Source of the DNA: Eledone cirrhosa
Taxonomy: Eukaryota
Assembly: GCA_964016885.1 (NCBI GenBank)
Contig: OZ024744.1
Location: 95,542,001-95,606,000, forward strand
Length of the DNA stretch: 64,000 nucleotides
Reading direction: 5' to 3'
Shown here one piece after another: positions 8,049-57,230 of this stretch; the first letter of the stretch is position 1, and each line of letters opens with the position of its first letter. A model generated the notes under the pieces. That model worked only from the letters and a program-made list of their open reading frames with translations, made no database searches and was not told where the DNA came from. The translations under genes and the position numbers were made by a program.

Positions 8049-8275
8049 GGCAGTGGATTGGCAGTAACGGTAGAGCGTCGGACACCCTGCTTTGCAGCAT
8101 AGAGTTACGGCCCTTTACGTTCTGAATTCAGATCACGCCGAGATTAGCTTTGCCTTTCATCCTTACTGAGGTCGATAAAATAAAGTGCCAGTCATACACT
8201 GGTGTCGATTTAATCGACTCCCCCACCCCTTCCCCCAGGATTTGTTGGCCTTGTGCCCAAATCAGAAACCATTAT
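8049..8275 (+). mobile_element. tRNA-derived SINE family A with (ATT)n tail
   Basis: A-box-like TGGCAGTAACGG, B-box-like GAATTCAGATC, core TTTGCCTTTCATCCTTAC...GGTCGATAAAATAAAGT, 3' end GGCCTTGTGCCCAAATCAGAAACC; (ATT)n on both sides. Other copies near 18570, 21549, 21744, 33185 (+) and 16350-16635, 39685-39800, 45575-45740 (-). Confidence 0.85.
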
Positions 8276-9276
8276 TAATATTATTATTATTATTATTATT
8301 ATTTTCATTTGTATAGACCAGATTGTTTACTTTCCCCCTTCCCCCCCCCATCCCTCTCCCCTCCATCCCCGTAACGTGCAACAGTTTAAGCTGAGAATCA
8401 TCGAGTAGATCTCTTATTTTATTTCACTGTACCCCACCAACACCCTGTGTCTTTGGACTTCTTTCTTACTTTCTTTCTTTCTCTCACGGTGCAGAATTAT
8501 TAAAAAATAATAATTAATAAAACAACTTTTCCATTGAGTACTGTTTTGGTTGGTGACTTACTTGTAGACATGAGACTCTCTCAGCTCTTGTATTATTTTC
8601 ACTTTTCCGGCCATATCTAAATTTAGTTGGTTTTATTATATTTTTTTTTTATTTATTTTTCTTGTATCTTCACAAACTATACAGGTTTATTATGTGTATA
8701 TAGGCATCTCAATTTATGTTTGTGAGTGTACGTACATTTGTGTGTGTGTGTGTGTGTGCGTGTTTTTATGTGCATAAGAATATGGTTTCTGATTTAGCCA
8801 AACAGTATTTTTATGTACATACATACACACACTCACACACACACTTAGAGGCACGCTCATGCTCCATTAAGACATGTTCATAAACATACATGTTTGAATC
8901 AATATCAGCAAGGTAGCGTATTTAATTGTACATACAGATGTCTGTATGTGTAAAAAATTGTTGAATTAAGGATTTTTTTTAAATATTTTTTTTAATTATT
9001 ATTCATGCTATATCTAAACCTAAGGTATATTTACTTGTACTTCTTCTGTCTAATTGATTTCCTTTCTTTTTATTTTTTTATCTTTTTCTGGTAACCTTTA
9101 AATGTAGATTTGCAAATAAAATCAAAAAGTTCTGTTTGAGAATTTTTTACCAACTATTTTTGGGAAAAAATTTTAATGGGTAAAAATTCTATTTATATGG
9201 GATGAGATGAGATAGTAAATAAAAAATATTTAAACTTTGAATTAAAAATAAAGTTATAAGTGCAGATTGACCTATA

Positions 9277-9308
<32 letters not shown>

Positions 9309-9967
9309 TTAGAATTGGTATCTGGGTGGCAGTTGAAAATACACCATTGATGAAGTAGTATAGATAGACAAAAGAGGCCGATAGTCTGGAAATCCCAAAT
9401 TATTGTAGCAAAATTATTAGTTAAGGTATCTTAATTTAACTATTATTTTACATACATGCAGCTATGTATAATGTTGATTTTGTTGGTGTTTAATTTCAAG
9501 TAAAATTATTCCTCTCTCACTCTCCATTTTCTCAAGTAAATAAAGCATGGATAATAGCAAGTTACTTAATGAGACAGTAGCATGGGCTTAGAGGGTAATA
9601 CACTCTGACAGTTCTTTTCATTTTCCTTTAAGTGTTCATTTTCAGGTTTGCAATAAAGATTTATCCAAGTTTTCGAGTAATGATTTAATGGTTTATTTTA
9701 TTTATTATTTTTTTTCTATGTTATTTAGAGTTTGAACTAAAACTGTCTTTTTATTTTGTGGAATATAACAACAAAGTATTATAGTGTTTAAAATAGAATG
9801 AGAAATCTGATTTATGAAAAACACATTAATAAAAGCAATCGTAGCTTAAATGGTCTGATTAATGAATTTAAACCTAGTAATAAATTATCTCAGAAATATA
9901 AACATGCAAGAAGAATTCTTTAAGAATATAAGTACATACTAATTATAAAGTTTCTAAAAATCTCGTT

Positions 9968-10348
9968 GGTATACATGAGAAAGCTCATTGCTAGAATAGC
10001 CGTTAAAACAGTTAAATGCTGTCAACGACAGCAATGGGCAAAAATGCATCAGGACAGACCAGTGGTCAACAGAGAGACAATTGACAAGGCGGGTGACAAG
10101 CAGATGAAATGTTGAAAAGATTGAAAGAGGAAAAGGACAAGTGTTTTGGTACACAAGTGACTGGACAAGTTTCCACACACACACACCTTCACCATCATCA
10201 CCTCTCAAACCTGCAAAATGGTTTGGATTGTCTCTCTGTTGGCTACTGGTTTCTGTCCTCTGAGGTATTTTTGCTCATTGCTGTCTTTGACAATATTTAG
10301 CTGTTTTAATGGCTGTTCTAGCAATGAGTTTTCTCATTTTTATATGTA
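9968..10348. mobile_element. MITE with long (about 110 bp) imperfect TIRs; second copy at about 32368-32840
   Basis: ATGAGAAAGCTCATTGCTAGAATAGCCGTTAAAACAG is mirrored by CTGTTTTAATGGCTGTTCTAGCAATGAGTTTTCTCAT; TA-rich flanks. Confidence 0.75.
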
Positions 10349-10684
10349 TTCAAATACATTCTTGCTTCGTCTTGATCAGAGACATGGTTTGTTTTTTTCA
10401 TTTAAATCTAGTTAGCAATTAATGAGCTACTTTAAAAAGTAAATAAGGTAGATTTAATTTCTCAAATCTCTTGAAATATTGTCATTTTTTTTTTTTTAAT
10501 TGCGTTATTCCTTATTTCGTTATTCTTTATTTTGTTAACAAATAAATATAAGTATAAATAAAGGATTTGTTAAATAATAAAATAAATGAATAAATAAAAG
10601 GCTTTTCTTCCTTTTTTTTTTTCCCCCCCTTTCATACAATTATTTTAAAAGAGCCTAAAAATTCTTACCATGTTAAATTCTGAT

Positions 10685-10717
<33 letters not shown>

Positions 10718-11394
10718 TTTTCTTTTTTCTTTTGGAGGTTAGATCATCTTATGCCTTCTACATTATTAAAATATTTTTCCTTGCCTAATATTTGCTTATA
10801 CCCCTCCCCCCCAACAGACTTTTTTATTTCTTTAGTTTCTTTCTTTGGGCCCCCCTTTTTCCTTTATATATATATATATATAAAGAACTTATTTCAGAAT
10901 ACAATTTTATAGAAATTGAAGAATGTCTTATTTTGCATGGGATTTTTTTTTTTTTTTTTTCGTTTCCAGTACCAAACTGCCTTCTAATTGCATGTATAAG
11001 ACATAGAGGTGTTTGTTTTATCAATATCAATATGTCAGAAAAGATCTCAAAATGTCCTCTTTGGCGTGTAATTTGATTTCTGGCAGGAACCAAGGGGAAA
11101 ATATCAAATATGTAATTGTATCATGGTAATTATTTTTTTTAAGAACTTTAATTTTGAATTGAAGCTTGTTTTATAAAAAAAAAAAAAAATAAAATCATGT
11201 TTACCTTAATTTTGTTGTACAATTTACTTGGTCATTTTTCTTAATCTCGTTAGGCTCATATCTGTTATAGGTTTAAGTTTTGCAAGAAAGTGTCTTTAAA
11301 AGAATTTTTTCTTTTTTTCATCTTCTAAATCTAATTTGCAATAGTTTTCTTTATTTTCAGTTATATTGCTTTTCTGCATGACCTTATTGTTACA

Positions 11395-11428
<34 letters not shown>

Positions 11429-14520: not shown

Positions 14521-14554
<34 letters not shown>

Positions 14555-14787: not shown

Positions 14788-14879
14788 TTGTATATAAAAA
14801 AAATTCCATCATAATTTGATGTAAGAACCTTTATGTTCCAAACACTGGAATAAAAGGCGTGAAAAAAAAAAAAAAAACT

Positions 14880-15884: not shown

Positions 15885-16240
15885 GCGCATGGCTTAGTGG
15901 TTAGAGCATTGGCCTTGCAATCGAAAGGTTGTGAGTTCAATTCTCGGACCGGGTGATGTGTTGTTTCCTTGAGCAAGACACTTTATTTCACATTGCTCCA
16001 GTTTACTCAGCTGTAGAAATGAGATGATAGGGACTAGGGTCCACATCATTCCACTGTAAAGTGGTCGTGGAGGTGCCACGGCAAAAAAGCACCCAGCACT
16101 CACTGTAAATGAGGTTGGTGTTAGGAAGGGCATCAAGCCAGAATCAGTTCCCGTATGAGCAAGACAAGGTCAGCCGACCGGACGCTGCCCACAACAGGAC
16201 AACCCGTCTAAGCCATACTAGCGTGGAAAAACGGTGATGA
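15885..16240 (+). mobile_element. tRNA-head SINE family B, tail type 2
   Basis: A box TGGCTTAGTGG, B box GAGTTCAATTC, core TCCTTGAGCAAGACACTT, module GGTTGGTGTTAGGAAGGGCATC, tail ...ACAACCCGTCTAAGCCATACTAGCGTGGAAAAACGG-TGATGA. Confidence 0.85.
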
Positions 16241-17566
16241 TATAGATATGTAAAGAAAGAGAGAGATCAGGATTTTTTTCAGTTTTAAATTAGTAAGACC
16301 ATTATCCAGCAGAGTACTTGATACTTGGGATAGTAGAGTGTAACTATATTATAATAATAATTGTTTCTACTTTTGGCACAAGGCCAGCAATTACCCAGTG
16401 TATTAAGAATATTAGTAATAATTGTTTCTAATTTTGGCACAAGGCCAGCAATTACTCAGTATATTACTGAAATTATTGTGTAAAGTGCTCAGGTGCACTA
16501 AACTCGTCAAAGGTGCATGTATAGTACATAGAATAATTGTTTCTACTTTTGGCACAAGGCCAGCAATTACCCAGTGCATTACTGGTACTTTATTTTATCG
16601 ACCCCGTAAGGATGAGAGGCAAAGTTACCCTCGGTATGTCAGGGAAGTACATGTGTGTATGTGTTAGCTGTTCTGTTGGCGGATCTCGGGAAGCATGGAG
16701 GCCTTAAAGGATGCAGTGTCTCGACAGCTAACAACTGATGCAGGTAGTTTGTTCTGTGCTGTTTTCTGACTTTGTGGGCATGTCCACGTGTGTTAGACAC
16801 ATGGAAATCAAAAACAGTCTGAACTTGACAGCTGAGTTCTTGCCATATCAGGGGTGCTGCTTAAGGTGTGATTGATGTGTTGGTAAATGGATAAGCAGTC
16901 AATAAAAGAATAATGGTTCATTGAAGGTCATTAATGAAAATTTTAGAATAAATTGTTTTTTTTTAAATATATTTTCCAGCAGTGGTTGTATGTTTCATTG
17001 TCTATGTAGATATAATGGCCTTTAAAGAGCCATTATCTTTTTCTTGACTGCTTATCCATTTACAGACACACCAATCACTTTAAACTATACCCCTGATGAA
17101 AACCTTTTCACAAGTAGCATTATTCCCTGCCTGGAATTAGTTGTCAAAATGGCAGGAGCTCAGCTGTCGGGGTCCCAACTCATCATATATATATCATCAA
17201 CATCATCATCACCATTTTACGTCCATTCTTCCACGCTAGCATGGGTTAGACGAGTTGTCCTGTTGTGGGAAATGCTAGGTGAGGTGACCTTGTCTTGCTC
17301 ATAAGGGAACTGATTTTGGCTGGGATTTTTACAGCTGGATGCCCTTCCTAACACCAACCTCATTGACAGTGAGTGCTGGGTGCTTTTTTTACCGTTGCGC
17401 CTACACAGCCACTTTACAGTGTGGGCTGGGTGCTTTTTTGTCGTGACAGCTCCACGACCACTTTGCAGTGGGAGGGGGTGGGGGCATATTGCCTATAGAC
17501 TTTGATATGTTAATTGTAAAAATATTCAAAGTATTGTTAACAGAAGAAGTATACTTCTCCATATTT

Positions 17567-17942
17567 CATGGCTTAGTGGTTAGAGCATTGGCCTTGAAAT
17601 CGAAAGGTTGTGAGTTCAATTCTCAGACCGGGTGATGTGTTGTTTCCTTGAGCAAGACACTTTATTTTACATTGCTCCAGTTTACTCAGCTGTAGAAATG
17701 AGATGATAGGGACTGGGGTCCATATCATCCCACTGTAAAGTGGTCGTGGAGGTGCCATGGCAAAAAAAGCACCCAGCCCACACTGTAAAGTGGACGTGTA
17801 GGCACCACAGCAAAAAAAGCACCCAGCACTCACTGTAAATGAGGTTGGTGTTAGGAAGGGCATCCAGCTGTAGAAATCGAGCCAGAATCAGTTCCCGTCC
17901 CACCCTTACAAGCAGGGAAAAGTGAACGTAAAATGATGATGA
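17567..17942 (+). mobile_element. tRNA-head SINE family B, tail type 1; near-identical copies at 41448-41792 (+), 46674-47037 (+), 52385-52737 (-)
   Basis: Same head and body as 15885; tail CCCACCCTT(A/G)CAAGCAGGGAAAAG...ACGTAAAATGATGATG. The repeated ORF-track peptide MPFLTPTSFTVSAG... is the antisense of this SINE. Confidence 0.9.
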
Positions 17943-19565
17943 GGTTTTCCATTGTCCATTTCTCTACTCTCCATTTTCTTCATTCCTTTTACCATCTCCA
18001 ACTTGCTTGCTTTGCTGATATTTGTTTTTGTGAACCTTGGTGTATGTTTAAAACTGTGTAATACACATATGCACATCATCACTATCCTCATCATCGTTTC
18101 ACGTTTGTTTTCCCTGCCTGCAAGGTTTGGACATGGTCACACATACACATATATATCTTTAGTTTCTTTTACTCTCCGTGGAGCATTGAGTGATGAGAGA
18201 TCTCTGTTCGATAAGGTTACAAGCTTTGTCACAGAAGGGCCTGCTTCGAGGTCAGGTATCTGCTTGTTTCTGTAGTAATTTTGATTAATGGATGTTTGGT
18301 TGCTAGGCTCGTACTCCATCCCTTGCCTGTTTTCAACACAAACTGAAAACTAACCAAACGTTTCAAAGTCAAGGGATTGAGGGTCCATAACCCTGGATAG
18401 GGGCCAATTTCATGTACTGTCAACCAGAGGTCACGCACACACATTCTGACGTATTTGACATAGTTTTATGTCTGCTTTTGCATGCTTGCATTGTCTGAAC
18501 TGGTTTTCGTTTACTATGGCTTCCCTCCACTGGGATTGCTTGCCACCTCTTCACCCAGCGATCATTAGGGTCGTGGTTTGGCAGTATCGGTAGAGCGTCA
18601 GATGCCATGCTTTTTAGTCTAGAGTTATGGCCCTTTGCGTTCTGAGTTCAAATCCGCCAAGGTTAACTTTGCCTTTCATCCTTACAGGGTTGATAAAATG
18701 AAGTAGCAGTCACGCACTTGAGTTAATGAACTTTCCCTTCCCCCAAAATTGCTGTCGAATACCTATATATATATATCATCATTATCACCGATTAACATCC
18801 ATTTTCCATGTTAGCACGGGTTAAATGAGCTGTCCTGTTGTGAGACAAGTCGAGTCAGATGAACAGATTTAGGCTTTGTTTCTACAGCTGGATGCCCTTC
18901 TTAACGCCAACCACATTTACAGTGTGGACTGGGTGCTTTTTGTTATGACACCTACACATTTGTGTATGTATGTATTATATAATATGAAGGTATGTAGTTA
19001 AAATCTCCTAGCTTCGATATTATGTGAGATAAAGCCTTTACCGTGAAAATACAATAGTAAATATAGAGTAATGTAAATGCTAAAGGGTTAATGCTTCTAA
19101 AGCCAGGATAATTTCTAACCTGATGAGCCTCTGGGTTCAACACAGATTTTAAGATTTAATAGGTGTGTGTGTGTGTGTATATAGGCGCCGAATTGAATTC
19201 CTCACTAAACTCACTTTACTGATGTTCCTCTATATGACTTGCACTGCTCTCATGTAATATAGTGTTTGTAACAACCAAAGGTTAAACTCATCTGAGGAGT
19301 CTGTGTCTTACAACTCTAGCATTGCATAACACATGTAACAAAAATAAACAAGTTAAACTGATCTTGATATATTCCTGAGAGAGTCATAGGAGCAGAGCCC
19401 TCAAACACTTCTTCCAGCGGGTCCTGTCAGAAGCAACTATCTCCAACTGATCTGGCTGGATCCCCAAGCGAGATCAGCCCAGCTCATCAATGTTATCTAA
19501 ACATCTTGCTCGGAGTCTCCTGTCAGTTGTTTTTGCCCATAAAATCTGTCCAGTGACAGATTTAA

Positions 19566-19763: not shown

Positions 19764-21511
19764 TTAAAACTTCATGAAGATCAAAGAATAGTATCCAGTT
19801 AGGCTCTCCCACTGTAAGTTTTGCTGTTGTTTTATTAACCCTTTAGTATTTAAACCAGACATACCCAGCCAGAATTCTCTCACCTCTTTCTGTTCAAACT
19901 GGCTGTAACCAGCCGCTCATACTGATGTTAAGGTATTGTTCTCAAAATAAATAATATCAAAATCTTCTAGATTCGAAATTATGTGAGATAAAGCCTTTAC
20001 CACAAAAATACAACAGTATATATAGAGTAACGTAAATACTAATGAGTTAAACAGCCTCAAATTACAGAATAAAATATTTTTAAAATACTGAGACAGCAGC
20101 TAAAATGGCTTAATATTGAAACACTTAACCCTTACATCTTTCATTTAAAAGGGTAAAGCCCCTGCTTTGGTCACTTAATGACCATGGAATTTGCACCTAA
20201 AAATATATATCTCTCTCACTCTCTCTCTCTGATGGTTTCCTTTCTTTTTCATTTTGTCTGTCTCTTTTTCCTTCTCTGTCTCTAGTCACAACGCCTATTA
20301 AACAAAGGGAGATAAATCCTCAGAGTAAAATCTGTATTATCTCCTCTATTCTGCTGACACTCAAAACGCTGTTGTCTTTTTTAATAACTTCTGCTTTCCA
20401 TTGCAATTTGTCACATTAAAAATACTATTTTATGTGACACAGGAAAGCCCGAAGAGGAGACCGTGTTATTTAACTGACATGAAACATGAAATAGTTTACA
20501 CTCAATTCATTGTATTATATAATTAAGTGTCTAACAAAGCAGTATCCAGTGTTTTCATTTCTTATATGTACATTACACTTGTATCTGTTACATACGTATA
20601 CACACACATACGTACACACACATAATGAAAAGCTGTTGTTGAAAACAAGAGTAACCACTGTTGAGTATCAAGTACTCATTACAAGAGAAGTTATTAGCTA
20701 TGAATACATTGATTTGAAGTAAGCGTCCTATGCTCTTTAGTCTGATGGCCTCCAAGAAACCTAGATGGAAATGATTGGCTTGTGAAGGTGGTGCCATCTA
20801 AGTACAAAGCTGCTGTAAAAAAAGAAAAAATATGGATTAGCAATGAGTTCAGTGAAGAATTTAGTGTGCAAGTGAGTGTTTATCATGGTTTAAATCCTCA
20901 TCTGACTCCTGTAACCTTTCTTGCAGTTGTCTCCCTATGAAGAGGACATAAGTATTAGCTCAACTTGACACAAATCTGACCTGAATCTCACTTAAACTAA
21001 TCCTCATTCCTCATCCTAGTCAGTTGTACTAAAACTTTCTCTGTTACTTTCATAACTTGATTCATCACTTTGATATCCATATAGTTGTATCTGTGAAGGC
21101 GTGTGGCCGAGTGGTTAGAAAATTGGATTCGCAATCGTGAGGTTGTGAGTATGGTTACCGGACCGGCAAATGTGTTATGTCCTTGAGCAAGACACTTTAT
21201 TTCACATTGCTCCTTCTACCTGGAGTTGCGACCGATAGATAGTATTACCAATTGGAAAGACAGTGAGTGATGAGATTGCTACACTGCTCCTTCTTTTGGG
21301 TCTACTGGAGGTATTCCCTCTTTCTCCCACACAATTTTCACATTCTGCAACTTTTTATAACTTTTCCAAGCCTCCTTCTCCTCATCAACGAGGGTAAAGT
21401 GTCATTCTAAATATACTTTGTCCCAAGATGTTCTATGACACACACCCAAATGCTGCACGTAGTGCTGAGCAACGCCTGGAAGCAGCATTTCTCGAAAGAA
21501 GTGCTATAGGG

Positions 21512-21955
21512 ACATGTGCCTAAATCAGAAACCATTATTATTATTATTGGTGGATTGGCAGTATCGGTAGAGCGTCGGACACCATGCTTTGTAGCATAGA
21601 GTTACGTCCCTTTACAGACTGAGTTCAAATCCCCGCCGAGGTTAACTTTGCCTTTCATCCTTACGGGGGTCAATAAAATAAAGTACCAGTAATGCACTGG
21701 GGTAATTGCTGGCCTTGTGCCAAAAGCAGAAACAATTATTATTGATGGTTTGGCAGTATCGGTAGAGCATCAGACAACATGCTCTGTGGAATATAGTTAC
21801 GGTCTATTACATTCTGAGTTTAAATCCCGCCATGATTAGCTTTGACTTTCATCCTTACAGTGTCGAGAAAATAAAGTACCAGTAATGCATTGGGGTCAGT
21901 TTGACTTTCCTCTTCAAATTGCTGGCCTTGTCTCAAAAGTAGACACAATTATTAA
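21512..21955 (+). mobile_element. Head-to-tail array of family A SINEs (one tail stub plus two copies)
   Basis: TGTGCCTAAATCAGAAACC(ATT)n, then a copy at 21549-21735, ATTATTATT, then a copy at 21744-21952. Confidence 0.85.
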
Positions 21956-32905: not shown

Positions 32906-33184
32906 ATAATTGATTGTATCAGCAACTGTGTATGACGTAAAGAAATAAAAGCAGATTTTAAATGTTTTTGTTTTTGATGAAAAGTTTAAAGTTTTAGAAA
33001 ACACTGGAAGGTACCAGGAGTATGAAATTAGACAATGCATTTATAAAGGGTTTTAAGCTATGATATAACAAACTTTTAAACATTTCTAAGGTAATGCTTA
33101 TGGGTCAAGCCAAATATTTTCATAGAAAATTACACCTCTCGAAAGCGTTGACACAGAATCGAGTTCTCTGGCATTATGAAGTAA

Positions 33185-33368
33185 GGCGGTGGATTGGCAG
33201 TATCGGTAGAGGGTCGGACGCCATGCTTTCCAGCATAGTTACGTCCCTTTACGATCTGAGTTCAAATCCCGCCGAGGTTAACTTTGCCTTTCATCCTTAC
33301 GGGGTCGATAAAATAAAATACCAGTAATGCACTGGGTAATTGCTGGCCTTGTGCCTAAAGTAGAAACA
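33185..33368 (+). mobile_element. Family A SINE with a 12-bp TSD
   Basis: ATTATGAAGTAA is present at both 33173-33184 and 33369-33380. Confidence 0.9.
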
Positions 33369-33679
33369 ATTATGAAGTAATACGGAAGACTCGCCTGCCC
33401 ATGTGCACGGTCTGAAGCATACATCTTATATGCACCACTTTCCATACTCCCCTCCATGCCCTAACTCCCCACCCCTACTCATGTTCCTCATATTTTTGCA
33501 CCTCCCGTGTTCTAAAACTCCACACATTCCTGCACACCCTTCCTCCACACATACGCCCCCTAGATTAGGTTGTGGATGAATTTGGACTGTTAGTGGCATC
33601 AGAAACATTAAACCCAGAACGAATTGGCCCTGATTTGGCATCATATGCCAAGAAAAAATTTGTCCAAGAAATGAAGCTC

Positions 33680-36836: not shown

Positions 36837-39275
36837 GGAGACAGCAATGAACATGTGATGTATATGGAGGTTAACAGCTACATAAAATGTGAAGTAGTTG
36901 GAATCTATGGAAGAAGAAGACCCAGGAGACAGCAATGGCATGAACATGTGATGTATATGGAGGTTAACAGCTACATAAAATGTGAAGTAGTTGGAATCTA
37001 TGGAAGAAGAAGACCCAGGAGACAGCAATGGCATGAACATGTGATGTATATGGAGGTTAACAGCTACATAAAATGTGAAGTAGTTGGAATCTATGGAAGT
37101 GAAAGACCCAGGAGACAGCAATGGCATGAACATGTGATGTATATGGAGGTTAACAGCTATATAAAATGTGAAGTAGTTGGAATCTATGGAAGAAGAAGAC
37201 CCAGGAGACAGCAATGGCATGAACATGTGATGTATATGGAGGTTAACAGCTACATAAAATGTGAAGTAGTTGGAATCTATGGAAGTGAAAGACCCAGGAG
37301 ACAGCAATGGCATGAACATGTGATGTATATGGAGGTTAACAGCTATATAAAATGTGAAGTAGTTGGAATCTATGGAAGAAGAAGACCCAGGAGACAGCAA
37401 TGGCATGAACATGTGATGTATATGGAGGTTAACAGCTACATAAAATGTGAAGTAGTTGGAATCTATGGAAGAAGAAGACCCAGGAGACAGCAATGGCATG
37501 AACATGTGATGTATATGGAGGTTAACAGCTACATAAAATGTGAAGTAGTTGGAATCTATGGAAGAAGAAGACCCAGGAGACAGCAATGGCATGAACATGT
37601 GATGTATATGGAGGTTAACAGCTACATAAAATGTGAAGTAGTTGGAATCTATGGAAGAAGAAGACCCAGGAGACAGCAATGGCATGAACATGTGATGTAT
37701 ATGGAGGTTAACAGCTACATAAAATGTGAAGTAGTTGGAATCTATGGAAGAGGAAGACCCAGGAGACAGCAATGGCATGAACATGTGATGTATATGGAGG
37801 TTAACAGCTACATAAAATGTGAAGTAGTTGGAATCTATGGAAGAAGAAGACCCAGGAGACAGCAATGGCATGAACATGTGATGTATATGGAGGTTAACAG
37901 CTACATAAAATGTGAAGTAGTTGGAATCTATGGAAGAAGAAGACCCAGGAGACAGCAATGGCATGAACATGTGATGTATATGGAGGTTAACAGCTACATA
38001 AAATGTGAAGTAGTTAGAATCTATGGAAGAAGAAGACCCAGGAGACAGCAATGGCATGAACATGTGATGTATATGGAGGTTAACAGCTACATAAAATGTG
38101 AAGTAGTTAGAATCTATGGAAGAGGAAGACCCAGGAGACAGCAATGGCATGAACATGTGATGTATATGGAGGTTAACAGCTACATAAAATGTGAAGTAGT
38201 TGGAATCTATGGAAGAAGAAGACCCAGGAGACAGCAATGGCATGAACATGTGATGTATATGGAGGTTAACAGCTACATAAAATGTGAAGTAGTTAGAATC
38301 TATGGAAGAGGAAGACCCAGGAGACAGCAATGGCATGAACATGTGATGTATATGGAGGTTAACAGCTACATAAAATGTGAAGTAGTTGGAATCTATGGAA
38401 GAAGAAGACCCAGGAGACAGCAATGGCATGAACATGTGATGTATATGGAGGTTAACAGCTACATAAAATGTGAAGTAGTTGGAATCTATGGAAGTGAAAG
38501 ACCCAGGAGACAGCAATGGCATGAACATGTGATGTATATGGAGGTTAACAGCTACATAAAATGTGAAGTAGTTGGAATCTATGGAAGAAGAAGACCCAGG
38601 AGACAGCAATGGCATGAACATGTGATGTATATGGAGGTTAACAGCTACATAAAATGTGAAGTAGTTGGAATCTATGGAAGTGAAAGACCCAGGAGACAGC
38701 AATGGCATGAACATGTGATGTATATGGAGGTTAACAGCTACATAAAATGTGAAGTAGTTGGAATCTATGGAAGAAGAAGACCCAGGAGACAGCAATGGCA
38801 TGAACATGTGATGTATATGGAGGTTAACAGCTACATAAAATGTGAAGTAGTTAGAATCTATGGAAGAGGAAGACCCAGGAGACAGCAATGGCATGAACAT
38901 GTGATGTATATGGAGGTTAACAGCTATATAAAATGTGAAGTAGTTAGAATCTATAGAAGAGGAAAACTCAGGGAAACTTGGGATGATGCTATTGAAGCTA
39001 ACCTCCTGACGAAGGAGAGGTTAACAGCTAAATAAAATGTGAAGTAGTTGGAATCTATGGAAGAGGAAGACCCAGGAGACAGCAATGGCATGAACATGTG
39101 ATGTATATGGAGGTTAACAGCTACATAAAATGTGAAGTAGTTAGAATCTATAGAAGAGGAAAACTCAGGGAAACTTGGGATGATGCTATTGAAGCTAACC
39201 TCCTGACGAAGGAGAAGTTAACAGCTAAATAAAATGTGAAGTAGTTGGAATCTATGGAAGAGGAAGACCCAGGGA
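36837..39275 (+). repeat. Homogeneous 93-bp tandem array (about 23 copies, then two longer variant units) derived from an RTE 3' coding region
   Basis: Unit translates RRQQWHEHVMYMEVNSYIKCEVVGIYGRGRP, matching RTE RRLRWYGHVMRM...GRGRP. Flanks continue the RTE: ELREKLDIRGIR upstream, ETWDDAIEANL downstream. Confidence 0.95.
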
Positions 39276-39819
39276 AACTTGGGATGATCTTATTGAAGTT
39301 AACCTCCTGCCAAAAGAGATGATACAAGATCAACTTCATCGGCAACATTCCGTATTGCTGAAGAAAACCCACCTTTTTATGTGTACAGGATGAAATAAGC
39401 ATGGAGAGGGTGGTAGTGAAGAAGTGGGACAACACTTAGATCCCCACCTGCTAGTTTACATTAATCTCCTTTATACACTAACCACCATCTTAATTCGTGC
39501 ATGGCCCCCATAACACCTGAAGGAGTCATAGAGACGCTGCATTAACATACAGCGTTTCTAGGGCATTTTTTACAAAAACTGGCTGAACGCATCTCCCTTC
39601 CAGATCTGAATACAGTAGATTTCTTCCAGACGAGGATAGAGAGAATGAGAGAATGGAAGTGAGAAAGAGATATAGAGAATAGGCTCCAGTACTTGACTGG
39701 TACTGTTTTTATCGGCCTTGAATGGATGAAAGGCAAAGTTGACCTCGGTGGGATTTGAACTCAGAGAGTTCAGAGCTGAAATGAATACTGCCAATTCACC
39801 ACCTTCACCTATCTTAATA

Positions 39820-41257: not shown

Positions 41258-42462
41258 CTCTCATCTTACACAATCACTCTCATCACACCACTCGCCTCTC
41301 CAGCTAGAACAAGGAGTCAAATCAACACCCAAATGTTGTAACAAGGTAGTGCAAGTAACATCATAAAACACACCCAGTCCTCGATGTAAAATGATAGTGC
41401 TGATCCCATGACAAAAAGAACCCAGTTAACCCTTTAGCATTCACATGGAGGCACATGGCTCAGTGGTTAGAGCATTGGCCTTGCAATCGAAAGGTTGTGA
41501 GTTCAATTCTCAGACCGGGTGATGTGTTGTTTCCTTGAGCAAGACACTTTATTTCACATTGCTCCAGTTTACTCAGCTGTAGAAATGAGATGATAGGGAC
41601 TGGGGTCCATATCATTCCACTACAAAGTGGTCGTGGAGGTGCCACGGCAAAAACGCACCCAGCACTCACTGTAAATGAGGTTGGTGTTAGGAAGGGCATC
41701 CAGCTGTAGAAATCAAGCCAGAATCAGTTCCAGTCCCACCCTTGCAAGCAGGGAAAAGTGGACGTAAAATGAAATGATGATGAAATGATGATTACTCTAT
41801 ATATATATATACTATTATATTTTCATGGTAAAGGCTTTATCTCACATAATTATCTCACATAATATCGAATCTATGAGATTTTGAAAGTATATATTTTGAG
41901 AACAATACCTTAACATCAGTTTCAGTGACCAGTTACAGCCAGTTTCAACAGAAAGAGGTAGAGAATTCTGGCCGGTTTTGGCCGGTTTGAACATCCTGTA
42001 TGGTAGTAGTGTTGGTGCCCTGAAAAAAAGCTTCAGTTTATATGTTGTAAAGTGGTTGGTGTTAGGAAAGACATCCAACTAGAGAAAACCAAGCCAAAAA
42101 TGGAACATATATATGAACAAGACGTGGTCACTTGACCTGTCATTTGACCTCTCTAGCCTCATAATTTGACAGCCTGGCTAACCTATGCAAGCATGGGAAA
42201 TAGATCTTAAATGGAGATGGTGATGATGATGGTGGTGGTGGTGGTGGGGATGATGAAGATTGTGGTGGGATGATGATGATGATGATGATGATGGCGATGA
42301 AGACGATGATGATGGTGATGATGATGGTGATAGTAATGATGCTGATGATGATTTTGGTTGTGATGGTGATGGTGATGATGTTGATGGTGGCGGTGGTGGT
42401 GGTGGTGGTGATGGGGATGATAATGATGATTATGGTTATGATTGTGATGGTGATGCTGCTGC

Positions 42463-42901: not shown

Positions 42902-43870
42902 TGTTATTAGTAACTGATTGTGGTTTCCAAAGCGGACACAGCCTCGTAGGTGGCACGATGGCAGTGGCCAGCAAATCAGGATAGGAGAGCTTGTGTCCTC
43001 TGTTATCAGTGACTGCTTGTGGTTTCTAAAGCACTAATGGGGACACAGCCTCATAGGTGGGACGATGGCAGTGGCTAGCAAATCAGGATAGGAGAGCTTG
43101 TGTCCTCTGTTATTAGTGACTGCTTGTGGTTTCTAAAGTACTAATGGGGACACAGCCTCATAGGTGGGACGATGGCAGTGGCCAGCAAATCAGGATAGGA
43201 GAGCTTGTGTCCTCTGTTATTAGTGACTGCTTGTGGTTTCCAAAGCACTAATGGGGACACAGCCTCGTAGGTGGCACGATGGCAGTGGCCAGCAAATCAG
43301 GATAGGAGAGCTTGTGTCCTCTGTTATCAGTGACTGCATGTGGTTTCCAAAGCACTAATGGGGACACAGCCTCGTAGGTGGCACGATGGCAGTGGCCAGA
43401 AAATCAGGATAGGAGAGCTTGTGTCCACTGTTATTAGTGACTGATTGTGGTTTCTAAAGCATTAATGGGGACACAGCCTCGTAGGTGGCACGATGGCAGT
43501 GGCCAGCAAATCAGGATAGGAGAGCTTGTGTCCTCTGTTATCAGTGACTGCATGTGGTTTCCAAAGCACTAATGGGGACACAGCCTCGTAGGTGGCACGA
43601 TGGCAGTGGCCAGCAAATCAGGATAGGAGAGCTTGTGTCCTCTGTTATCAGTGACTGATTGTGGTTTCCAAAGCACTAATGGGGACACAGCCTCGTAGGT
43701 GGCACGATGGCAATGGCCAGCAAATCTTACTCTCCTTTTACGTACAACAACAAATATGCGTGGGAGGCAGGAGGCAGATGTCACCAGCTTATGTTCTGAA
43801 TGCGTTGAAGCAGGTGAGTGTAAGTGCCATCAAGGTGCTTTTGTTGTTTGGATGAAAGCGTCCATGTTTC
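42733..43870 (-). mobile_element. RTE-like LINE 3' fragment containing a 107-bp tandem array (about 8 copies, 42860-43726)
   Basis: Minus strand RKRRVRFAGHCHRA..EAVSPLVLWKP...LSYPD; GCAAATC (one copy GAAAATC) recurs every 107 nt from 42971 to 43720; stop followed by a TGATGATGA tail. Confidence 0.85.
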
Positions 43871-45502: not shown

Positions 45503-45543
<41 letters not shown>

Positions 45544-45848
45544 ATCGGAATTAAGAGTATTCCGCAGTTCACAGTAATAATAATAATTGTTTCTATTTTA
45601 GGCACAAGGCCAGTGCATTACTGGTACTTTATTTTATCGACCCCGTAAGGATGAAAGGCAAAGTCAACCTCAGATCGTAAAGGGATGTAACTATGCTGGA
45701 AAGCATGGTGTCCGACCCTCTACTGATACTGCCAATCCCCTGCTAAACCTGTAGATATTGTTCTCTATACAGTAAGGGTAAAACTCACTTGTAATAATTC
45801 TTTACACACATCTCACTGTGTAACACACTTCTCTTTGTGTAATATATT

Positions 45849-45917
<69 letters not shown>

Positions 45918-47004
45918 TCATCATCATCCCCATTTTACGTCCGTTCCTCCACGCTAGCATGGGTTAGACGGGTTGTCCTGTTGTGGGCAGTGTCCGGTCA
46001 ACTGACCTTGTCTTGCTCATACGGGAACTGATTCTGGCTTGATTTCTACAGCTGGATGCCCTTCCTAACACCAACCTCATTTACAGTGAGTGCTGGGCGC
46101 TTTTTTCCGTGGCGATATAATATATATATATAGTGGGTTATGTAGTTTTCTTTGTAGTGTGTGTGATTCAGGGTAAGGTAAGAAGAGTAAACTATAGAAA
46201 GCTGACATGGAGAAGATAAAATACAATAAAATACAATAAACGAGATAAAACTTGTTTAAAAACAGTACACAGTATACATTTTGTGTTTTATTGTTGTTTA
46301 GGTGACGGTAGAGGTGTAGAAAGATGCGTGTGTGTGAGTTAATGTTAGAATTAAAATTAGGGTTTAGAGTTAGGATTAGGATTAGGATTACTGTTAGGAT
46401 AGTTGTTATATACAGCGTTCCTTGGGAACTTTAAACCTAGTGAAGCCCATCCTCTTTTCAGGTCTCAATATAGCTGATTTCTTCCAAAGAATGAGAGAAA
46501 AGGATAAAGAGGAAGACTTGCCCCTGACACTGGAATGCCACTTTTTTAACGACCTCGAAGGGATAAAAGGTAAGTTATTCTTATAAATCTGTATTTTATA
46601 GTCGCCACACTATAACCAAATGGTTAAGGATTGCTCTTCAAAATCTTTAGATCTCAAGTTCTCATCTACTGTGGAGGCACACGGCTTAGTGGTTAGAGCA
46701 TTGGCCTTGCAATCGAAAGGTTGTGAGTTCAATTCTCAGACCGGGTGATGTGTTGTTTCCTTGAGCAAGACACTTTATTTCACATTGCTCCAGTTTACTC
46801 AGCTGTAGAAATGAGTTGTGTAGGTGCCACGGCAAAAAACCACCCAGCCCACACTGTAAAGTGGACGTGTAGGCGCCACGGAAAAAAAAAGCACCCACTA
46901 CTCACTGTAAATGATGTTGGTGTTAGGAAGGGCATCCAGCTGTAGAAATCAAGCCAGAATTAGTTCCCATCCCACCCTTGCAAGCAGGGAAAAGCGGACA
47001 TAAA

Positions 47005-47037
<33 letters not shown>

Positions 47038-47954
47038 TGTGGTATGTTGGACAACTGTCATTTACTTTGGTTCAAACCATTATGCCTTGCCCATGAAATT
47101 GGATAAATGGAAACTGCTTAAAAGCCTGTTGGAATGACTGTACCTGTAATCAGTAACGCGCAGAGGGAGGGGGCTGACAGTGTGTTGGCCATCCTTTGGA
47201 TGGTGGCATCATTTGGGGAAAAGAACTTAATAAATTTGATTTATATTAAAATTGAATAAAGCATTTATTTCATGTTTCATCTGTGTTTATATATTCAAAA
47301 TATTTTCCTTTCTCATAATATTTCTCATAATATTTCTCATAATATTAGGCCTTATACTTGAGCCTTTGGAGCATTAGGCCTTATACTTGAGCCTTTGGGG
47401 CATACAATCTTCATCATCATCATCATCACAATTTAACGTCCATTTTTTCATGCTAGCATGGGTTAGACATGTTGTCCCATTGTCAGATCAGATGATCATG
47501 TCTTGATCATACAGAACTGATTCTGGCTTGGTTTCTATGGTTTCTACGACTGTATGATCTGTCTTTGATTATCATGGGTGAGAAGAAATATTATGGTGAC
47601 TGGATCATTCAACCATTTATATAAATTATTAAGCCTCTATTACTAACAACACAGTGCTAGGAACTATATGCCCACATAGTCGCACCTCGTAGTATGGCTT
47701 GTCAAATATTTTGATAAGGTCTAATGTTTTGTCAAAGATCAGTATTACACAGACCACTCTCTTTAAATACATGTTTTGGCAGGGGTGTAATTTCACTGCT
47801 TGCCATAAGTGCTGTTTTCCTTAGTTACACCTCTGTGTACATTGAGTACTATCCTGATCTTGAATGAGATAGTGAAGGCCAGCCTCTAGAAACTGAACCT
47901 CCCAATCATCATCATCATCACCATCATCATCGTCGTAGCCATTATCACCACCAT

Positions 47955-51699: not shown

Positions 51700-52370
51700 A
51701 TGTTCCTCGCAGCATTTGAGGTTGGTGCTTTCTGTGGTGATAACATTGTTATTGGTATCCTTCACTAGGGCTGTCTTGATAGGGGACCGGCACAGGCTCT
51801 GTGGAGTGTGTTGAACACTTGGCTGAGGTTGTTATTCTTTGCCACTGCTTCCAGGCACTTAGCTTCATCTGCCCAAAACTTCTCCCAGTCATTCGTGATG
51901 GCATTGTTGTGTATCTGGTTGAGCTGACAATATTCATTCATGTTACCCCATAATCAAGCCTTGCAGTGACAGTTAATTATCTCCAACATCTGCATTGAAA
52001 TCCAGGTTCGTTTCGTAGGAAGTCTTGAGTTTACCAAGATGTCATGCGCAGACTGGTTGATGCTTGATTTAAAGTTGTTGGTCTCGTCTTCGGCCATGGC
52101 TCTGAAGTGATTGGTGTTGAAGCACACAAATGTAGAGGCAATATAGGGATCATAGAAACAGGATGAGTCAAGGTCAAGGCTGGTACTTGGTGGCAGGGTT
52201 TGCCCACAACCTCAGCTTCAGTGCAGCAGCCGGAAACTGATGGTCGGTATTGCCAAGTTGAGCTCCTCTGTATACTCGGCAGTTGGTGATAAATGACCGC
52301 TATCAGCAGGAGATGATGATATGGTCGATTGCTTTCCGTGTGCAGCCATCTGGACTGTATCCAGTTCATA
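51700..52370 (-). pseudogene. RTE LINE fragment: endonuclease C-terminus and linker
   Basis: Minus strand RKAIDHIII...NCRVYRGAQLGNTDH and NDWEKFWADEAKCLEAVAKNNNL. Confidence 0.65.
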
Positions 52371-53087
52371 TGTACATACATAGATCATCATCATCATCAT
52401 CATCAGCATTTCATTTTACGTCCGCTTTTTCCCTGCTTGCAAGGGTGGGACGGGAACTGATTCTGGCTTGATTTCTACAGCTGGATGCCCTTCCTAACAC
52501 CAACCTCATTTACAGTGAGTGCTGGGTGCTTTTTTGCCGTGGCACCTCCACGACCACTTTGCAGTGGAATGATTTGGACCCCAGTCCCTATCATCTCATT
52601 TCTACAGCTGAGTAAACTGGAGCAATGTGAAATAAAGTGTCTTGCTCAAGGAAACAACACATCACCCAGTCTGAGAATTGAACTCACAACCTTTCGATTG
52701 CAAGGCCAATGCTCTAACCACTAAGCCATGTGCCTCCATCATATATACATATATGATGGCTGCAAACTCACGTTAAGAGTATTGCAATCACTTGTCAGAT
52801 TTAGATGTGTGATACTCAGATATAACTTTTCAAGCCTGTTAGAGACTTGCATTCCTTAGCACATTGATGACAACTATGGATCTCCCTGGCCTCATGTCTT
52901 GCATCAGGATGCCTGTAACCTTCACAATACCATGGAGATCATAATTCACCGGTTTATCTCTGAACATGGCTACGACTGTGGTTCTTGAGATCAGATTTGC
53001 TCAAGCAAATCTTTCCACACTCAGGGCTCACCAATTCAATGGAGACACATATATACATGCATGTATACATACATACATACATACATA

Positions 53088-54179: not shown

Positions 54180-55156
54180 TCAGTTTGTCTACCTGGGAAG
54201 CACTCAATCAATACACCAATCTTGATAATGAAATTCCACTCAGGATTAGGAAAGCAAGTGATGCTTTTGGAAAGCTAGAAAGGCACCTCTGGGGTTGCCG
54301 AGATATATGCAAGGAGACAAAGACAAAGGACAAGGCATGTGTGCTCTCTTCTCTTCTTTATGCCGGCGTGACCTGGGTCACATATCGAAACCACCTTAAA
54401 CAATTGGAGCATTTCCGTCAGATGTGTCTCAGACGGATCCATGGTGTTCACTGGAGGGACCACATCAGTGATGTCGAGATTTTGGAAAGCTCTGTGTGTG
54501 ACAGTATAGAAGCTCTTGTGCTTAAGCAACGACTCCGTTGGAGTGGTCACCTTGCCAGGATGAAGGATTCTAGAATACCAAAACTATTTTATGGAGAGTT
54601 AGTTAAAGGAAAACGACCGCCACATAAACCAAAAAAGAGGTATAAGGATTCCTTGAAAGCCTCTCTGAAAGACGCTAACATCTCTGCTGATACATGGGAA
54701 AATATTGCTGCTGATCGTAATAAATGGAGAAAGAGTGTATATGAGGGAAAAGTTACCTTTGAGGCATCTCGAATCGCACACGAGAAAGTAAAGCGGGATG
54801 TGAGGAAGGGCATTGCTGTTGCACTTCCAGACGGCGAGGGTCCTCCTATGGTGCTGACATGCAGCGTCTGTGCGAGACTCTGCCTAAGCAAAGCTGGACT
54901 CGAAAGTCATCTTCGCAGTCATAAAGTAAGACCAGTGGTTGACTACCAGGCTGCTGTTGGAGATGCTACTCATCATGCCTGCCAAACATGTGGTAGAGAA
55001 TGTAAATCAGCAGGAGGGCTCAAATTACATGAAAAAGCACATGAACTCCAACCACAGCCGACTATTCCCAGTGAATGTTTTGGTTGCCAACTCTGTGCAA
55101 GACATTTTAGATCATTGGCTGGGCTAAAAAGCCACATTCGATCGCAGCACCGTTAA
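54180..55156 (+). mobile_element. RTE (BovB-like) LINE 3' fragment ending in three C2H2 zinc fingers
   Basis: FVYLGST, RIRKASDAFGKL, RLRWSGHLARM, then CSVC...HLRSH, CQTC...HEKAH, CQLC...HIRSQH. Confidence 0.85.
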
Positions 55157-55205
55157 TTGTTATTGTGTGTGTGCGTGTATGTGTATATATATATATATTT
55201 ATTAC

Positions 55206-55616
55206 AATCCCTAATTAACTTTTTCAAGTTTCACTTGAAGAGGAAAATCAGGGTGGAAAGGCAAGTGCTGTCTTCTAGTAAGTTTGTTGAAAGGTGGGTG
55301 AAAGTGGCGAGTTAGGTCCAAGTAAATGGGCCCACTCTTAGTATGCGCCTGTAGACTGAGGAGTGGGAAAACTGAGAGAGGGCGCTTGCCCTAGTGGTCA
55401 GGGTGGCTGTGGTCTCTTGTGTGGTTTTTGTCACAAGTGACCCTCGGAGGCTTCCCCCTTTTTGGGAAATTTTTGTTGTTTGAAATTCTGTCTTGTTATA
55501 ACCGTTTTACACGGCCAAAACCCACTTTGTACCGTCCTGTGCCGTCTGTAATGTTTTTCTTCATGTTAGCCCTTGTGGCCAATAAAAAAACCATTATTAT
55601 TATTATTATTATTATT
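55206..55616 (+). mobile_element. Tx1-clade LINE copy 1: short 3' fragment with (ATT)n tail
   Basis: Homologous to the 3' ends at 56777-57230 and 62594-63020. Confidence 0.9.
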
Positions 55617-57230
55617 CTCAAGGAATACGAAGCGGTGACAGGAGCAAAGATAAACCAGGAAAAGTCGGTGAGCTTGCAGCTTGGCACCTGGAGAGGCAAG
55701 TCCATGCTCTTCGACAGCGTCGTGGGACGTTGGACGGACGGGCCGGTTAAATTGCTCGGGGTCTGGTTCGGACCGGACCTCCAGATTGAGAAAAACTGAA
55801 ACGAGGTGACGAGCAGGGTGGCCTCCCTCACCCAGAAATGGGCCGAGAGGAAGCTGTCCCTGAAAGGCCGGGCGGAGGTGGTGAATGCGTACATCGCATC
55901 CGTCATCTGCTACCGCCTCACCGTCGTACCTTGCCCCGGCCCAACTCTCACCAAAATGGAGCGCCTCCTCTTCCGCTTTTTGTGGAAGGGATGCGCTCCC
56001 ATGGTCAGGCGGTCCATCTGCTGTCAACACCCGTTACGTGGAGGACTGGGCATGCCATGGCAGATGATGCGCAAACATGCGCTAAGGCTGCGACATCTCT
56101 GGTGCTTCCTTGACGGTGAACAGGTGTGGTCGCTGCTCGGCAGGCACGTTTTCCCACAGCTCGTCTCCTTGACGGAGTTGCAGTCCTGGCTCAGGAAAAG
56201 ACCGAGGGATAGCGCTTGGAAACTGGAATGTCTCCAGGCGCTCACTTCCCTCTGCCAGCTGGGCACCAGTATCGGTGGAACATCCACCTTGGCGTTCTAT
56301 AGCGGACTAGTGGAGGAGAAGAGCGACGACATTCTCGGAGAGATCCTGGGTGTCGAAGAAGATCAGCTGTTTGCTCTCTTCCGGAGAACTTTCAGCCCAG
56401 GGCCTATGGATAACTTTAAAAAATCCCTGGCCTGGCAGTGTTACCGGGGAGTGTTGCTGGTTCGAGATAAGCTCTACAGGCACGGAAGTGCCGTTAGCCG
56501 AGCCTGTCCGAGATGCGCGCAGAGCGACGAAACCGTTGTGCACGCATTCGTTCAATGCCCGAGCATTGTTGTGACTTGTGGAGCTATGTCGAACAGTTGC
56601 TGTCGCGTGTAGGACCAATCCAGTTATCGACTGAGTCCATTGTGCAGATGGTCTCGCCGTCTTCCTTCGAGGAGGAAGGGCAGGCGGTTTTCATCTGCCT
56701 GGTGGTCATGGCGAAAGAGATTGTGTGGTGGACAAGGTTAAAAGGGTTAAAGACAGACACTTTCCTCTTCGGCGAATCCCTGTTTAACTTTTTCAAGTTT
56801 CACTTGAAGAGGAAAATCAGGGTGGAGAGGTAAGTGCTGCCTTCTAGCAAGTTTGTTGAAAGGTGGGTGAATGTAGCGAGAATGGCTCTGAGTGAACGGG
56901 ACAGCTCTGAATATACGTCTGTAGTTTGAGAAATGGAAAAATTGAGAGAGGGCGCTTGCCCTGGTCGTCAGGATGGCCGTGGTCTTTTGTGTGGTTTTCG
57001 TGACGAGTAACCGTCGGAGGTTTCCCCCCTATTGGGGAATTTTTCATTGTTTCAATTTTCATTTTTATTGTTTATATGTTTCTATGTCCTTTTTTTTTTT
57101 TCTTATATAAATAATAAAAATATTTACACGCACAAAACCCACATCGTACCGTCCTGTGCCGTCTGTAATGTTTTTCTTGATGTCAGCCCTTGTGGCCAAT
57201 AAAGAAATCATTATTATTATTATTATTATT
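55617..57230 (+). mobile_element. Tx1-clade LINE copy 2: 5'-truncated, disrupted ORF2 C-terminal half, (ATT)n tail
   Basis: YEAVTGAKINQEKS, LSLKGRAEV, GGLGMP, CPRCAQSDETVVHAFVQC; stop at 55797 and a frameshift near 56570. Confidence 0.92.

What the first reader, a model, noticed from the sequence alone, without database searches (positions are those of the whole stretch)
8049..57230. Family A tRNA-SINE shares its 3' end and (ATT)n target with the Tx1 LINE: candidate site-specific LINE-SINE pair
Seen: SINE end GGCCTTGTGCCCAAATCAGAAACCATTATT (about 8247-8276) aligns without gaps to Tx1 end GCCCTTGTGGCCAATAAAGAAATCATTATT (about 57186-57215) at 24 of 30 positions, or 18 of 24 excluding the tail. 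SINE copies sit in (ATT)n (8049), and the one clean TSD begins ATTAT (33173). Known: SINEs often borrow the 3' end of their partner LINE. Inference: this SINE is mobilised by the Tx1 and inherits its specificity. Such pairs are less commonly described than L2, CR1 or RTE partnerships.
Basis: partly seen in the sequence, partly recalled or inferred. Interest (0 to 1): 0.75.

Follow-up and report, generated by a model that had tools for sequence, protein, structure and literature searches.

The report
SINE shares hairpin tail with Tx1
A very abundant short repeat (SINE) in this likely octopus genome ends in the same small predicted RNA hairpin as the genome's Tx1-type jumping genes and lands at ATT-starting sites as they do, so it likely borrows their copying enzyme, although unlike them it mostly sits outside long ATT repeats.

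Summary
Observation confirmed: the SINE end (8247-8276) matches the Tx1-type LINE end (57186-57215) at 24/30, or 18/24 without the tail (P about 7e-7). All 8 Tx1-type ends tested score 14-18/24. The 12 ends of CR1-, RTE-, I/Nimb- and Dong-like LINEs score 6-13/24, including a CR1-like family that also ends in (ATT)n. The shared part is a weak predicted hairpin (CUUGU loop, 13 nt before the ATT tail) whose stem differs by two-sided base-pair swaps. SINE copies have 10-20 bp target duplications starting ATTA, as measurable Tx1 copies do; the CR1-like rival leaves none. Ages overlap. The 'site-specific (ATT)n' half is only partly right: 30/30 full-length Tx1 sit in long (ATT)n, against 7/91 SINE copies, whose target is a short ATTAT. 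Best reading: a stringent Tx1-SINE partnership with a looser target. No assay was run, and the exact partner family is unresolved. I found no tail-sharing Tx1-SINE pair in 8 literature searches (Repbase not available). This scan noted the same pair on other DNA of this genome at least six times (unreviewed notes).

The parts
8049..8270 (+). SINE, long form (about 220 bp): tRNA-like head with A and B boxes, central body, Tx1-like 3' end; lies between ATT-rich tracts
8247..8257 (+). SINE 3' hairpin (3-bp stem, CUUGU loop), 13 nt before the ATT tail
33185..33368 (+). SINE, short form (185 bp; lacks about 30 nt before the hairpin), with a 12-bp TSD at 33173-33184 and 33369-33380
21510..21950 (+). 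a SINE tail followed by two further SINE copies, head to tail, each joined at the ATT tail of the one before
18573..18760 (+). SINE copy lacking the 3' hairpin
45586..45745 (-). SINE copy with internal deletions
16360..16634 (-). 5'-truncated SINE and two more SINE tails; the first is flanked by sequence of the CR1-like 3' UTR
55205..55592 (+). Tx1-type LINE family A, 5'-truncated (388 bp); hairpin 55569-55579; (ATT)n 55593-55616
55617..57209 (+). Tx1-type LINE family B, 5'-truncated (1.6 kb, ORF2 C-terminal part with zf-RVT); hairpin 57186-57196; (ATT)7 tail 57210-57230.
57231..62972 (+). Tx1-type LINE family C, near full length but broken (frameshifts, about 127 bp missing in RT). ORF1 from 57440 with a CX2CX4HX4C knuckle near 58490; ORF2 59458-62739 with APE endonuclease, RT and zf-RVT; hairpin 62948-62960; (ATT)16 tail from 62973
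57382..57394 (+). second CUUGU-loop hairpin, in the Tx1-C 5' UTR, with SINE-type stem polarity

Best explanation
The SINE is a non-autonomous, tRNA-like repeat that ends in the same predicted hairpin-plus-spacer as this genome's Tx1-type LINEs and is likely copied in trans by the ORF2 protein of an ATT-tailed Tx1 family. Shown: shared end, two-sided stem changes, 10-20 bp duplications starting ATTA, overlapping ages, intact ORF2 copies. Inferred: Pol III makes the SINE RNA from its A and B boxes; ORF2p binds the CUUGU loop (stringent recognition); its endonuclease nicks the bottom strand so that a free ...ATAAT-3' end pairs with the AUUAU that follows the hairpin by 13 nt and primes reverse transcription; a second nick about 16 nt away makes the duplication. 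The SINE needs only a short ATTAT, so it is ATT-biased but not microsatellite-specific, while young Tx1 copies pile up in long (ATT)n, including each other's tails.
For: (1) Tail specificity: against the long-form SINE, 8 of 8 Tx1-type ends give 16-18/24 ungapped and Smith-Waterman z 2.5-5.4 (p 0.001-0.026 versus shuffles); 12 of 12 other LINE ends give 6-11/24 and z <= 0.3 (the CR1-d end corrected gives 10-11/24). (2) Hairpin: it is in the minimum-energy fold of 7 of 7 ends folded. The loop is CTTGT in 22 of 27 Tx1 ends and 68 of 84 SINE tails. Pair 2 is C-G in 26/27 Tx1 and G-C in 74/84 SINE; pair 3 is G-C in SINE and in 17/27 Tx1, A-T in 5/27. Covariation score 0.50, against 0.00-0.30 for slid structures. 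(3) Footprint: 69 of 91 SINE copies have a TSD >=9 bp (swapped-flank control 7.75), median 16, and 59 of 69 start ATTA. Tx1 duplications that can be read at imperfect or short tracts are about 11-20 bp and also start ATTA. The ATT-tailed CR1-like family shows no TSD and no ATT run above 1 unit upstream in any copy with a called 5' end. (4) Nesting: same-strand SINE within 90 nt below 9 of 48 Tx1 tails and 12 of 69 SINE tails, none on the opposite strand, background 1.1%; Tx1 copies also start right behind SINE tails. (5) Ages: SINE 85-99% identical to its majority sequence (median about 95%); the two largest Tx1 clusters 91-100% (medians 96-97%). (6) Precedent for loop-specific recognition in L2 LINEs (PMC4176376, passages).
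Against: The shared stretch is short (27 nt, about 45 nt with gaps against family D) and only about 70% identical. Against the commoner short form, 3 of 8 Tx1 ends are not significant (p 0.10-0.13), and one CR1-like end reaches 13/24 (p 0.11). The hairpin has only three reliable pairs and folds no better than shuffles (z -0.9 to +1.2); the pair count rests on 5 rows, 9/500 shuffles. Target use differs clearly: (ATT)>=4 directly after the end in 32/48 Tx1 against 1/69 SINE. Many truncated Tx1 calls have no ATT upstream (18/55), partly miscalled junctions. The CR1-like tails also attract some SINEs (2/27). No Tx1 family carrying the SINE's exact stem at its 3' end was found (30 of 30 pattern hits checked were SINEs). 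Families E-G were picked with a matrix built from the same motif, so they are not independent tests. The LINE catalogue is a sample, not complete. No functional test was run.
Confidence: 0.76

Rival explanations
1. The tail is Tx1-derived, but the SINE was spread by a different, unsampled or extinct member of the L1/Tx1 group with a looser ATTAT preference, not by the (ATT)n-specific families in the window.
For: Target stringency differs (7/91 against 30/30 and 20/55). The SINE stem polarity and spacer match no sampled Tx1 exactly. The zf-RVT search has 44,776 candidates, of which 30 loci were read.
Against: All sampled Tx1-type ends share the loop, so cross-recognition is plausible. Older Tx1 copies also occur at short ATT sites (11 of 48 have at most two ATT units after the end). 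Ages overlap. A high-copy partner should have shown up in 590 kb of random sequence.
Confidence: 0.15
2. Recognition is relaxed: the enzyme needs only the AUU tail to pair with the nicked target, and the hairpin is an inherited relic or serves RNA processing (the Tx1 end contains AATAAA).
For: The hairpin is weak. Most L1-group LINEs are thought to be relaxed (PMC3472496, passages). The AATAAA of Tx1 is not kept in the SINE.
Against: Two-sided changes at two stem pairs with a constant loop and a constant 13-nt spacer, while the UTR upstream diverges between families, argue for selection on the structure in both elements.
Confidence: 0.06
3. The match is chance or convergence, and the SINE uses the abundant ATT-tailed CR1-like LINE or an RTE- or Dong-like LINE.
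For: A CR1-like family with intact 945-957-codon frames and at least 13,027 3' ends also ends in (ATT)n. CR1 and L2 are the usual partners in molluscs (PMC4824008, PMC11481361, passages).
Against: Its end matches the SINE at 8-9/24 (z < 0), and it leaves no TSD and shows no ATT target. RTE-like ends carry (GAT)n and Dong-like ends (AAT)n on the sense strand.
Confidence: 0.03

Closest known systems
Crocodilian SINEU with Tx1-Mar (Kojima 2015, PMC4494074; passages read)
   Same: A SINE assigned to a target-preferring Tx1 lineage; tandem insertions; overlapping ages.
   Different: SINEU has snRNA heads and a poly(A) tail and was linked to Tx1-Mar by a shared target (a Mariner element); the paper found no LINE similar to the SINEU-1 3' half. 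Here the link is a shared 3' hairpin, the head is tRNA-like and the tail is ATT.
Stringent SINE/LINE pairs with a 3' stem-loop: eel UnaL2/UnaSINE, zebrafish ZfL2-1 and ZfL2-2 (PMC4176376, passages), bivalve CORE- and V-SINEs with CR1 and L2 (PMC4824008, PMC11481361, passages)
   Same: Short shared 3' end, stem-loop with compensatory changes, simple-repeat tail instead of poly(A).
   Different: Those partners are L2, CR1, RTE or Nimb clade; the stem here is only 3-4 bp and recognition is untested.
Stringent L1-clade pairs: maize LINE1-1_ZM with ZmSINE2/3 and Chlamydomonas L1-1_CR with SINEX-3_CR (PMC3472496, PMC3747384; passages and section 1.4)
   Same: An L1-group LINE sharing a structured 3' end with a tRNA SINE; only 3 of 58 surveyed pairs were of this kind.
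   Different: Plant and algal, 50-80 nt shared, poly(A) or poly(T) ends, no microsatellite targeting; this case is an animal Tx1-type lineage.
Microsatellite-specific Tx1 families Kibi (TC)n, Koshi (TTC)n and crocodilian (TTCC)n/(TTTC)n families (as summarised in PMC4494074)
   Same: APE-type LINE sitting in a microsatellite.
   Different: Targets here are (ATT)n, with sister families on (CTAT)n; no SINE partner is mentioned for those families in the passages read.
Octopus tRNA-derived SINEs OK, OR1, OR2 (Ohshima and Okada 1994; not read, cited in PMC4824008 and PMC4758252 as CORE-SINEs)
   Same: Abundant tRNA-like SINE in a likely octopod genome; the body resembles a conserved SINE central domain (recalled, not tested).

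Membership tests
tRNA-derived SINE | 100-700 bp, interspersed, high copy, non-coding | tested here: met
   185 and about 216 bp forms; 89 tails in 590 kb of random sequence, about 450,000 genome-wide by extrapolation
tRNA-derived SINE | [quoted passage not shown] | tested here: inconclusive
   B box matches and a loose A box is present; the head aligns weakly to 11 of 13 tRNA-like sequences of this genome (p 0.002-0.04). ARAGORN and Rfam call no tRNA in the SINE. Source tRNA not identified.
tRNA-derived SINE | Target site duplications and simple-repeat tail | tested here: met
   69 of 91 with TSD, control 7.75; ATT follows the end in 86 of 91
tRNA-derived SINE | Transcription by Pol III | not testable with these tools
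   needs RNA or promoter assays
L1/Tx1 group LINE | Two ORFs; ORF2 with APE endonuclease, RT and C-terminal zinc-binding domain, closer to L1 than to R2 | tested here: met
   Pfam PF03372, PF00078, PF13966; best PDB hit human L1 ORF2p E 1e-52 against R2 4e-20
Tx1 clade (within the L1 group) | RT phylogeny groups with named Tx1 elements | not testable with these tools
   No named Tx1 reference was returned; the tree only shows that the genome's families form one group with unnamed relatives. The label rests on target specificity and the ORF1 zinc knuckle (diagnostic value recalled).
Tx1 clade (within the L1 group) | Target-sequence preference | tested here: met
   30 of 30 full-length family C 5' ends directly follow long (ATT)n; sister families have (CTAT)n tails and flanks
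Stringent SINE/LINE pair | SINE 3' end similar to one LINE group and not to others | tested here: met
   8 of 8 Tx1-type against 0 of 12 other ends for the long form
Stringent SINE/LINE pair | Conserved 3' stem-loop with compensatory changes | tested here: met
   short stem, weak energy, few independent lineages
Stringent SINE/LINE pair | Retrotransposition in trans depends on the shared end | not testable with these tools
   needs a cell assay
Site-specific ((ATT)n microsatellite) SINE | Most copies inside the microsatellite, as for the LINE | tested here: not met
   7 of 91; at most 1,826 of 32,305 exact heads genome-wide (the denominator includes satellite arrays); still over 100-fold above the 0.035% background
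CORE-SINE (octopus OR1/OR2) | About 60-bp CORE domain in the body | not testable with these tools
   reference sequences not obtainable; the resemblance is recalled only

The most novel reading that the evidence does not exclude
An animal Tx1 lineage uses stringent recognition of a minimal 3-bp-stem CUUGU hairpin, kept across families with different microsatellite targets. One of the most abundant SINEs of octopod genomes exploits it, and the same enzyme gives tight (ATT)n targeting for its own RNA but loose ATTAT targeting for the SINE, so that the RNA tail, not only the endonuclease, sets the specificity.
Probability: 0.4. Interest if true: 0.68.

Novelty: new variant of a known kind. Interest (0 to 1): 0.5.

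Why it matters
It would name the engine behind a SINE of several hundred thousand copies in a genome type where SINE expansion is the hallmark. It would add an animal case to the very short list of L1-group LINEs that recognise a specific 3' structure, which bears on whether stringent recognition is ancestral in the L1 group. Because intact ORF2 copies exist and LINE and SINE differ in target stringency, the pair makes a direct test possible of how much the endonuclease and how much RNA-target pairing contribute to site choice.

Tried and rejected
ARAGORN and Rfam found no tRNA in the SINE head. Folding energy does not distinguish the hairpin from shuffles. A pattern search for a Tx1-D-type UTR carrying the SINE-type stem gave 86 hits; 30 of 30 checked were SINE variants, and 1 listed match had Tx1-D context. 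The idea that the Tx1-C 5' UTR is a captured SINE was rejected: whole-SINE alignment p 0.06-0.23, head p 0.68, only the 40-nt tail aligns (p 0.004, post hoc). Naming the clade through protein databases failed: no informative names. Expression: no RNA holder listed; laying contigs was uninformative. In one search the CR1-d end was first cut at the wrong repeat unit and was redone. The automatic 5' junction calls for Tx1 include miscalls (internal deletions, limits of the references) and were not pruned before the 20/55 count. In the CR1-like table the 3' end was cut early in about half the rows, so 'no TSD' rests on the remaining rows and on reading the printed flanks. The 29 'TX1' hits in PMC4176376 are a protein-fragment name, not the Tx1 clade. 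No 3' end was recovered for one further endonuclease cluster (L232/L237).
Full report
Setting. The window is G000:C28:95,542,001-95,606,000 of a 3.0-Gb animal genome. The repeat content suggests an octopod (inference from recall; not tested). I read the cited places, sampled 59 random 10-kb stretches (590 kb) and fetched targeted loci.

Observation. The SINE end at 8247-8273 and the LINE end at 57186-57212 match at 21/27 without gaps and 18/24 without ATT; P = 6.7e-7, or 7e-5 after a 100-fold correction. The 12-bp duplication at 33173 begins ATTAT. The LINE end is the middle one of three related elements stacked head to tail, each behind the (ATT)n tail of the one before: A 55205-55592, B 55617-57209 and C 57231-62972. 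C is near full length but broken. It encodes APE endonuclease, RT and zf-RVT, and an intact copy's ORF2 is closest to human L1 ORF2p among solved structures. Of 20 full-length copies fetched, 5 have an open 1152-codon ORF2, and the copies are 98% identical on average. 'Tx1' is the likely clade, from target preference and the ORF1 zinc knuckle, but no named reference could be obtained.

The SINE. It has a 185-bp and an about 216-bp form, with a B box, a loose A box and weak similarity to tRNA-like sequences of the genome (11 of 13 at p < 0.05). There are 89 tails in 590 kb, about 450,000 copies if extrapolated. Copies are 85-99% identical to their majority sequence (58 copies).

Is Tx1 the best match? 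I collected LINE ends through Pfam searches and the random sample. Against the last 40 nt of the long form, 8 of 8 Tx1-type ends scored 16-18/24 and z 2.5-5.4; 12 of 12 CR1-, I/Nimb-, RTE- and Dong-like ends scored 6-11/24 and z at most 0.3 (these clade labels rest on recalled motifs). Against the short form the contrast is weaker: 14-17/24, with three Tx1 ends not significant and one CR1-like end at 13/24. Families E-G were found with a matrix built from the motif and are not independent; A-D were found by position or by zf-RVT. The most serious rival is a young CR1-like family that also ends in (ATT)n. Its end does not match (8-9/24), and its copies show neither duplications nor ATT upstream (3' ends were cut early in about half the rows). 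No Tx1 with the SINE's exact stem was found.

What is shared. A hairpin with a CUUGU loop lies 13 nt before the ATT tail in the SINE and in families A-C. The differences fall in the stem as two-sided swaps: pair 2 is C-G in 26 of 27 Tx1 ends and G-C in 74 of 84 SINE tails; pair 3 is G-C or A-T among Tx1 families; the loop is kept in 22 of 27 and 68 of 84 (3 of 30 zf-RVT loci gave no end). The hairpin is in the minimum-energy fold of all 7 ends folded but is no more stable than shuffles, and the formal pair count used 5 rows (score 0.50, 9/500 shuffles). I noted this hairpin, before looking at earlier findings.

Targets. 69 of 91 full-length SINE copies have a duplication of at least 9 bp (control 7.75), median 16, and 59 of 69 start ATTA. 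Only 4 of 69 are pure ATT, and 7 of 91 have four or more ATT units upstream (33 of the 91 came from loci chosen by similarity to the 8049 copy). Genome-wide, at most 1,826 of 32,305 exact heads follow (ATT)4 within 6 nt, against a background of 0.035%; the denominator is inflated by a satellite made of the SINE head. Full-length Tx1-C follows long (ATT)n in 30 of 30 cases, 18 of them the tail of another Tx1; truncated copies do so in 20 of 55 automatic calls. Readable Tx1 duplications are about 11-20 bp and start ATTA. SINEs sit on the same strand just below 9 of 48 Tx1 tails and never on the opposite strand. So the strand, first bases and duplication length agree, while the dependence on long repeats does not.

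Mechanism (inferred). Pol III transcript; ORF2p binds the loop; bottom-strand nick; the freed ATAAT end pairs with AUUAU in the RNA and primes reverse transcription; second nick about 16 nt away. The looser SINE target may reflect its short AUU tail, or a different Tx1 family as partner. Family D aligns furthest (z 5.4), but the partner is unresolved. The CTAT-tailed sister families (tree) are unlikely partners because of their different tail.

Comparison with print. Eight searches found no tail-sharing Tx1-SINE pair and no ATT-specific Tx1. Kojima 2015 (PMC4494074, passages) links SINEU to Tx1-Mar by target. Ohshima 2012 and 2013 (PMC3472496, passages; PMC3747384, section 1.4, passages and part of Table 1) list 3 L1-clade pairs among 58, and 'Tx1' occurs only in two text passages of the 2013 paper. 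Mollusc SINE papers name CR1, L2, Nimb and RTE partners (PMC4824008, PMC11481361, PMC4758252, PMC5786205; passages). PMC4176376 (passages) shows loop-specific binding for L2. PMC13282606 and PMC8967140 (passages) report abundant SINEs and active L1-Tx1 in octopus without naming partners in the passages seen. Repbase, the SINEBase sequences (PMC3531059, passages; supplements unavailable), Ohshima and Okada 1994 and Kojima and Fujiwara 2004 were not seen and may already hold the SINE, the Tx1 families or the pairing.

Earlier notes of this scan report the same pair on other pieces of this genome; they are unreviewed and are not counted as support.

Verdict. A real and well-supported candidate for a stringent Tx1-SINE pair (0.76), with the site-specificity claim reduced to a shared ATTAT preference. 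It is a new variant of a known kind; interest 0.5.

Noticed in passing
window 57382-57394 (+); L177, L410, L029, L173, L194: Tx1 5' UTRs carry a G-rich pentaloop hairpin shortly before the ORF1 start. In family C its loop and stem polarity equal the SINE's 3' hairpin; in another family the innermost pair is swapped on both sides. Possibly a second ORF2p or translation element.
   Followed up: partly
L019, L023, L154 and others (flanks below Tx1-C tails): Tx1-C repeatedly sits tail to tail in the (AAT)n tails of two Dong/R4-like LINE families on the opposite strand (clade label from recalled motifs).
   Followed up: partly
L104, L114, L096, L084, L113, L349, L354: Sister Tx1-type families with the same 3' hairpin but (CTAT)n tails and (CTAT)n flanks: a target switch with a conserved RNA signal.
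   Followed up: partly
L321-L324; G000:C1:10,316,727-10,356,513: A 45-bp tandem satellite made of the first 45 nt of the SINE head, in arrays spanning tens of kb.
   Followed up: no
L200-L229, L272-L274, L279: A young CR1-like LINE with many intact 945-957-codon frames and an (ATT)n tail; some copies have a duplicated 3' end.
   Followed up: partly
window 39678-39765 (-); L098, L112, L115: A related SINE shares the central body but continues into a different 3' part without the hairpin, suggesting tail exchange.
   Followed up: no
window 4459-7443 (+): A 994-codon open frame with glutamine-type repeats and no Pfam match, about 600 bp upstream of the SINE at 8049.
   Followed up: no
window 15885-16234, 17175-17942, 41445-41811, 46672-47047, 52369-52739: A second abundant short repeat family whose end matches the RTE-like 3' ends with (GAT)n tails; probably an RTE-dependent non-autonomous element.
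   Followed up: no
window 36847-39273 and 42934-43726: 93-bp and 107-bp tandem arrays.
   Followed up: no
L422, L424-L432: Ten near-identical tRNA-like sequences with varying anticodons, likely one amplified tRNA-derived family rather than true genes.
   Followed up: no
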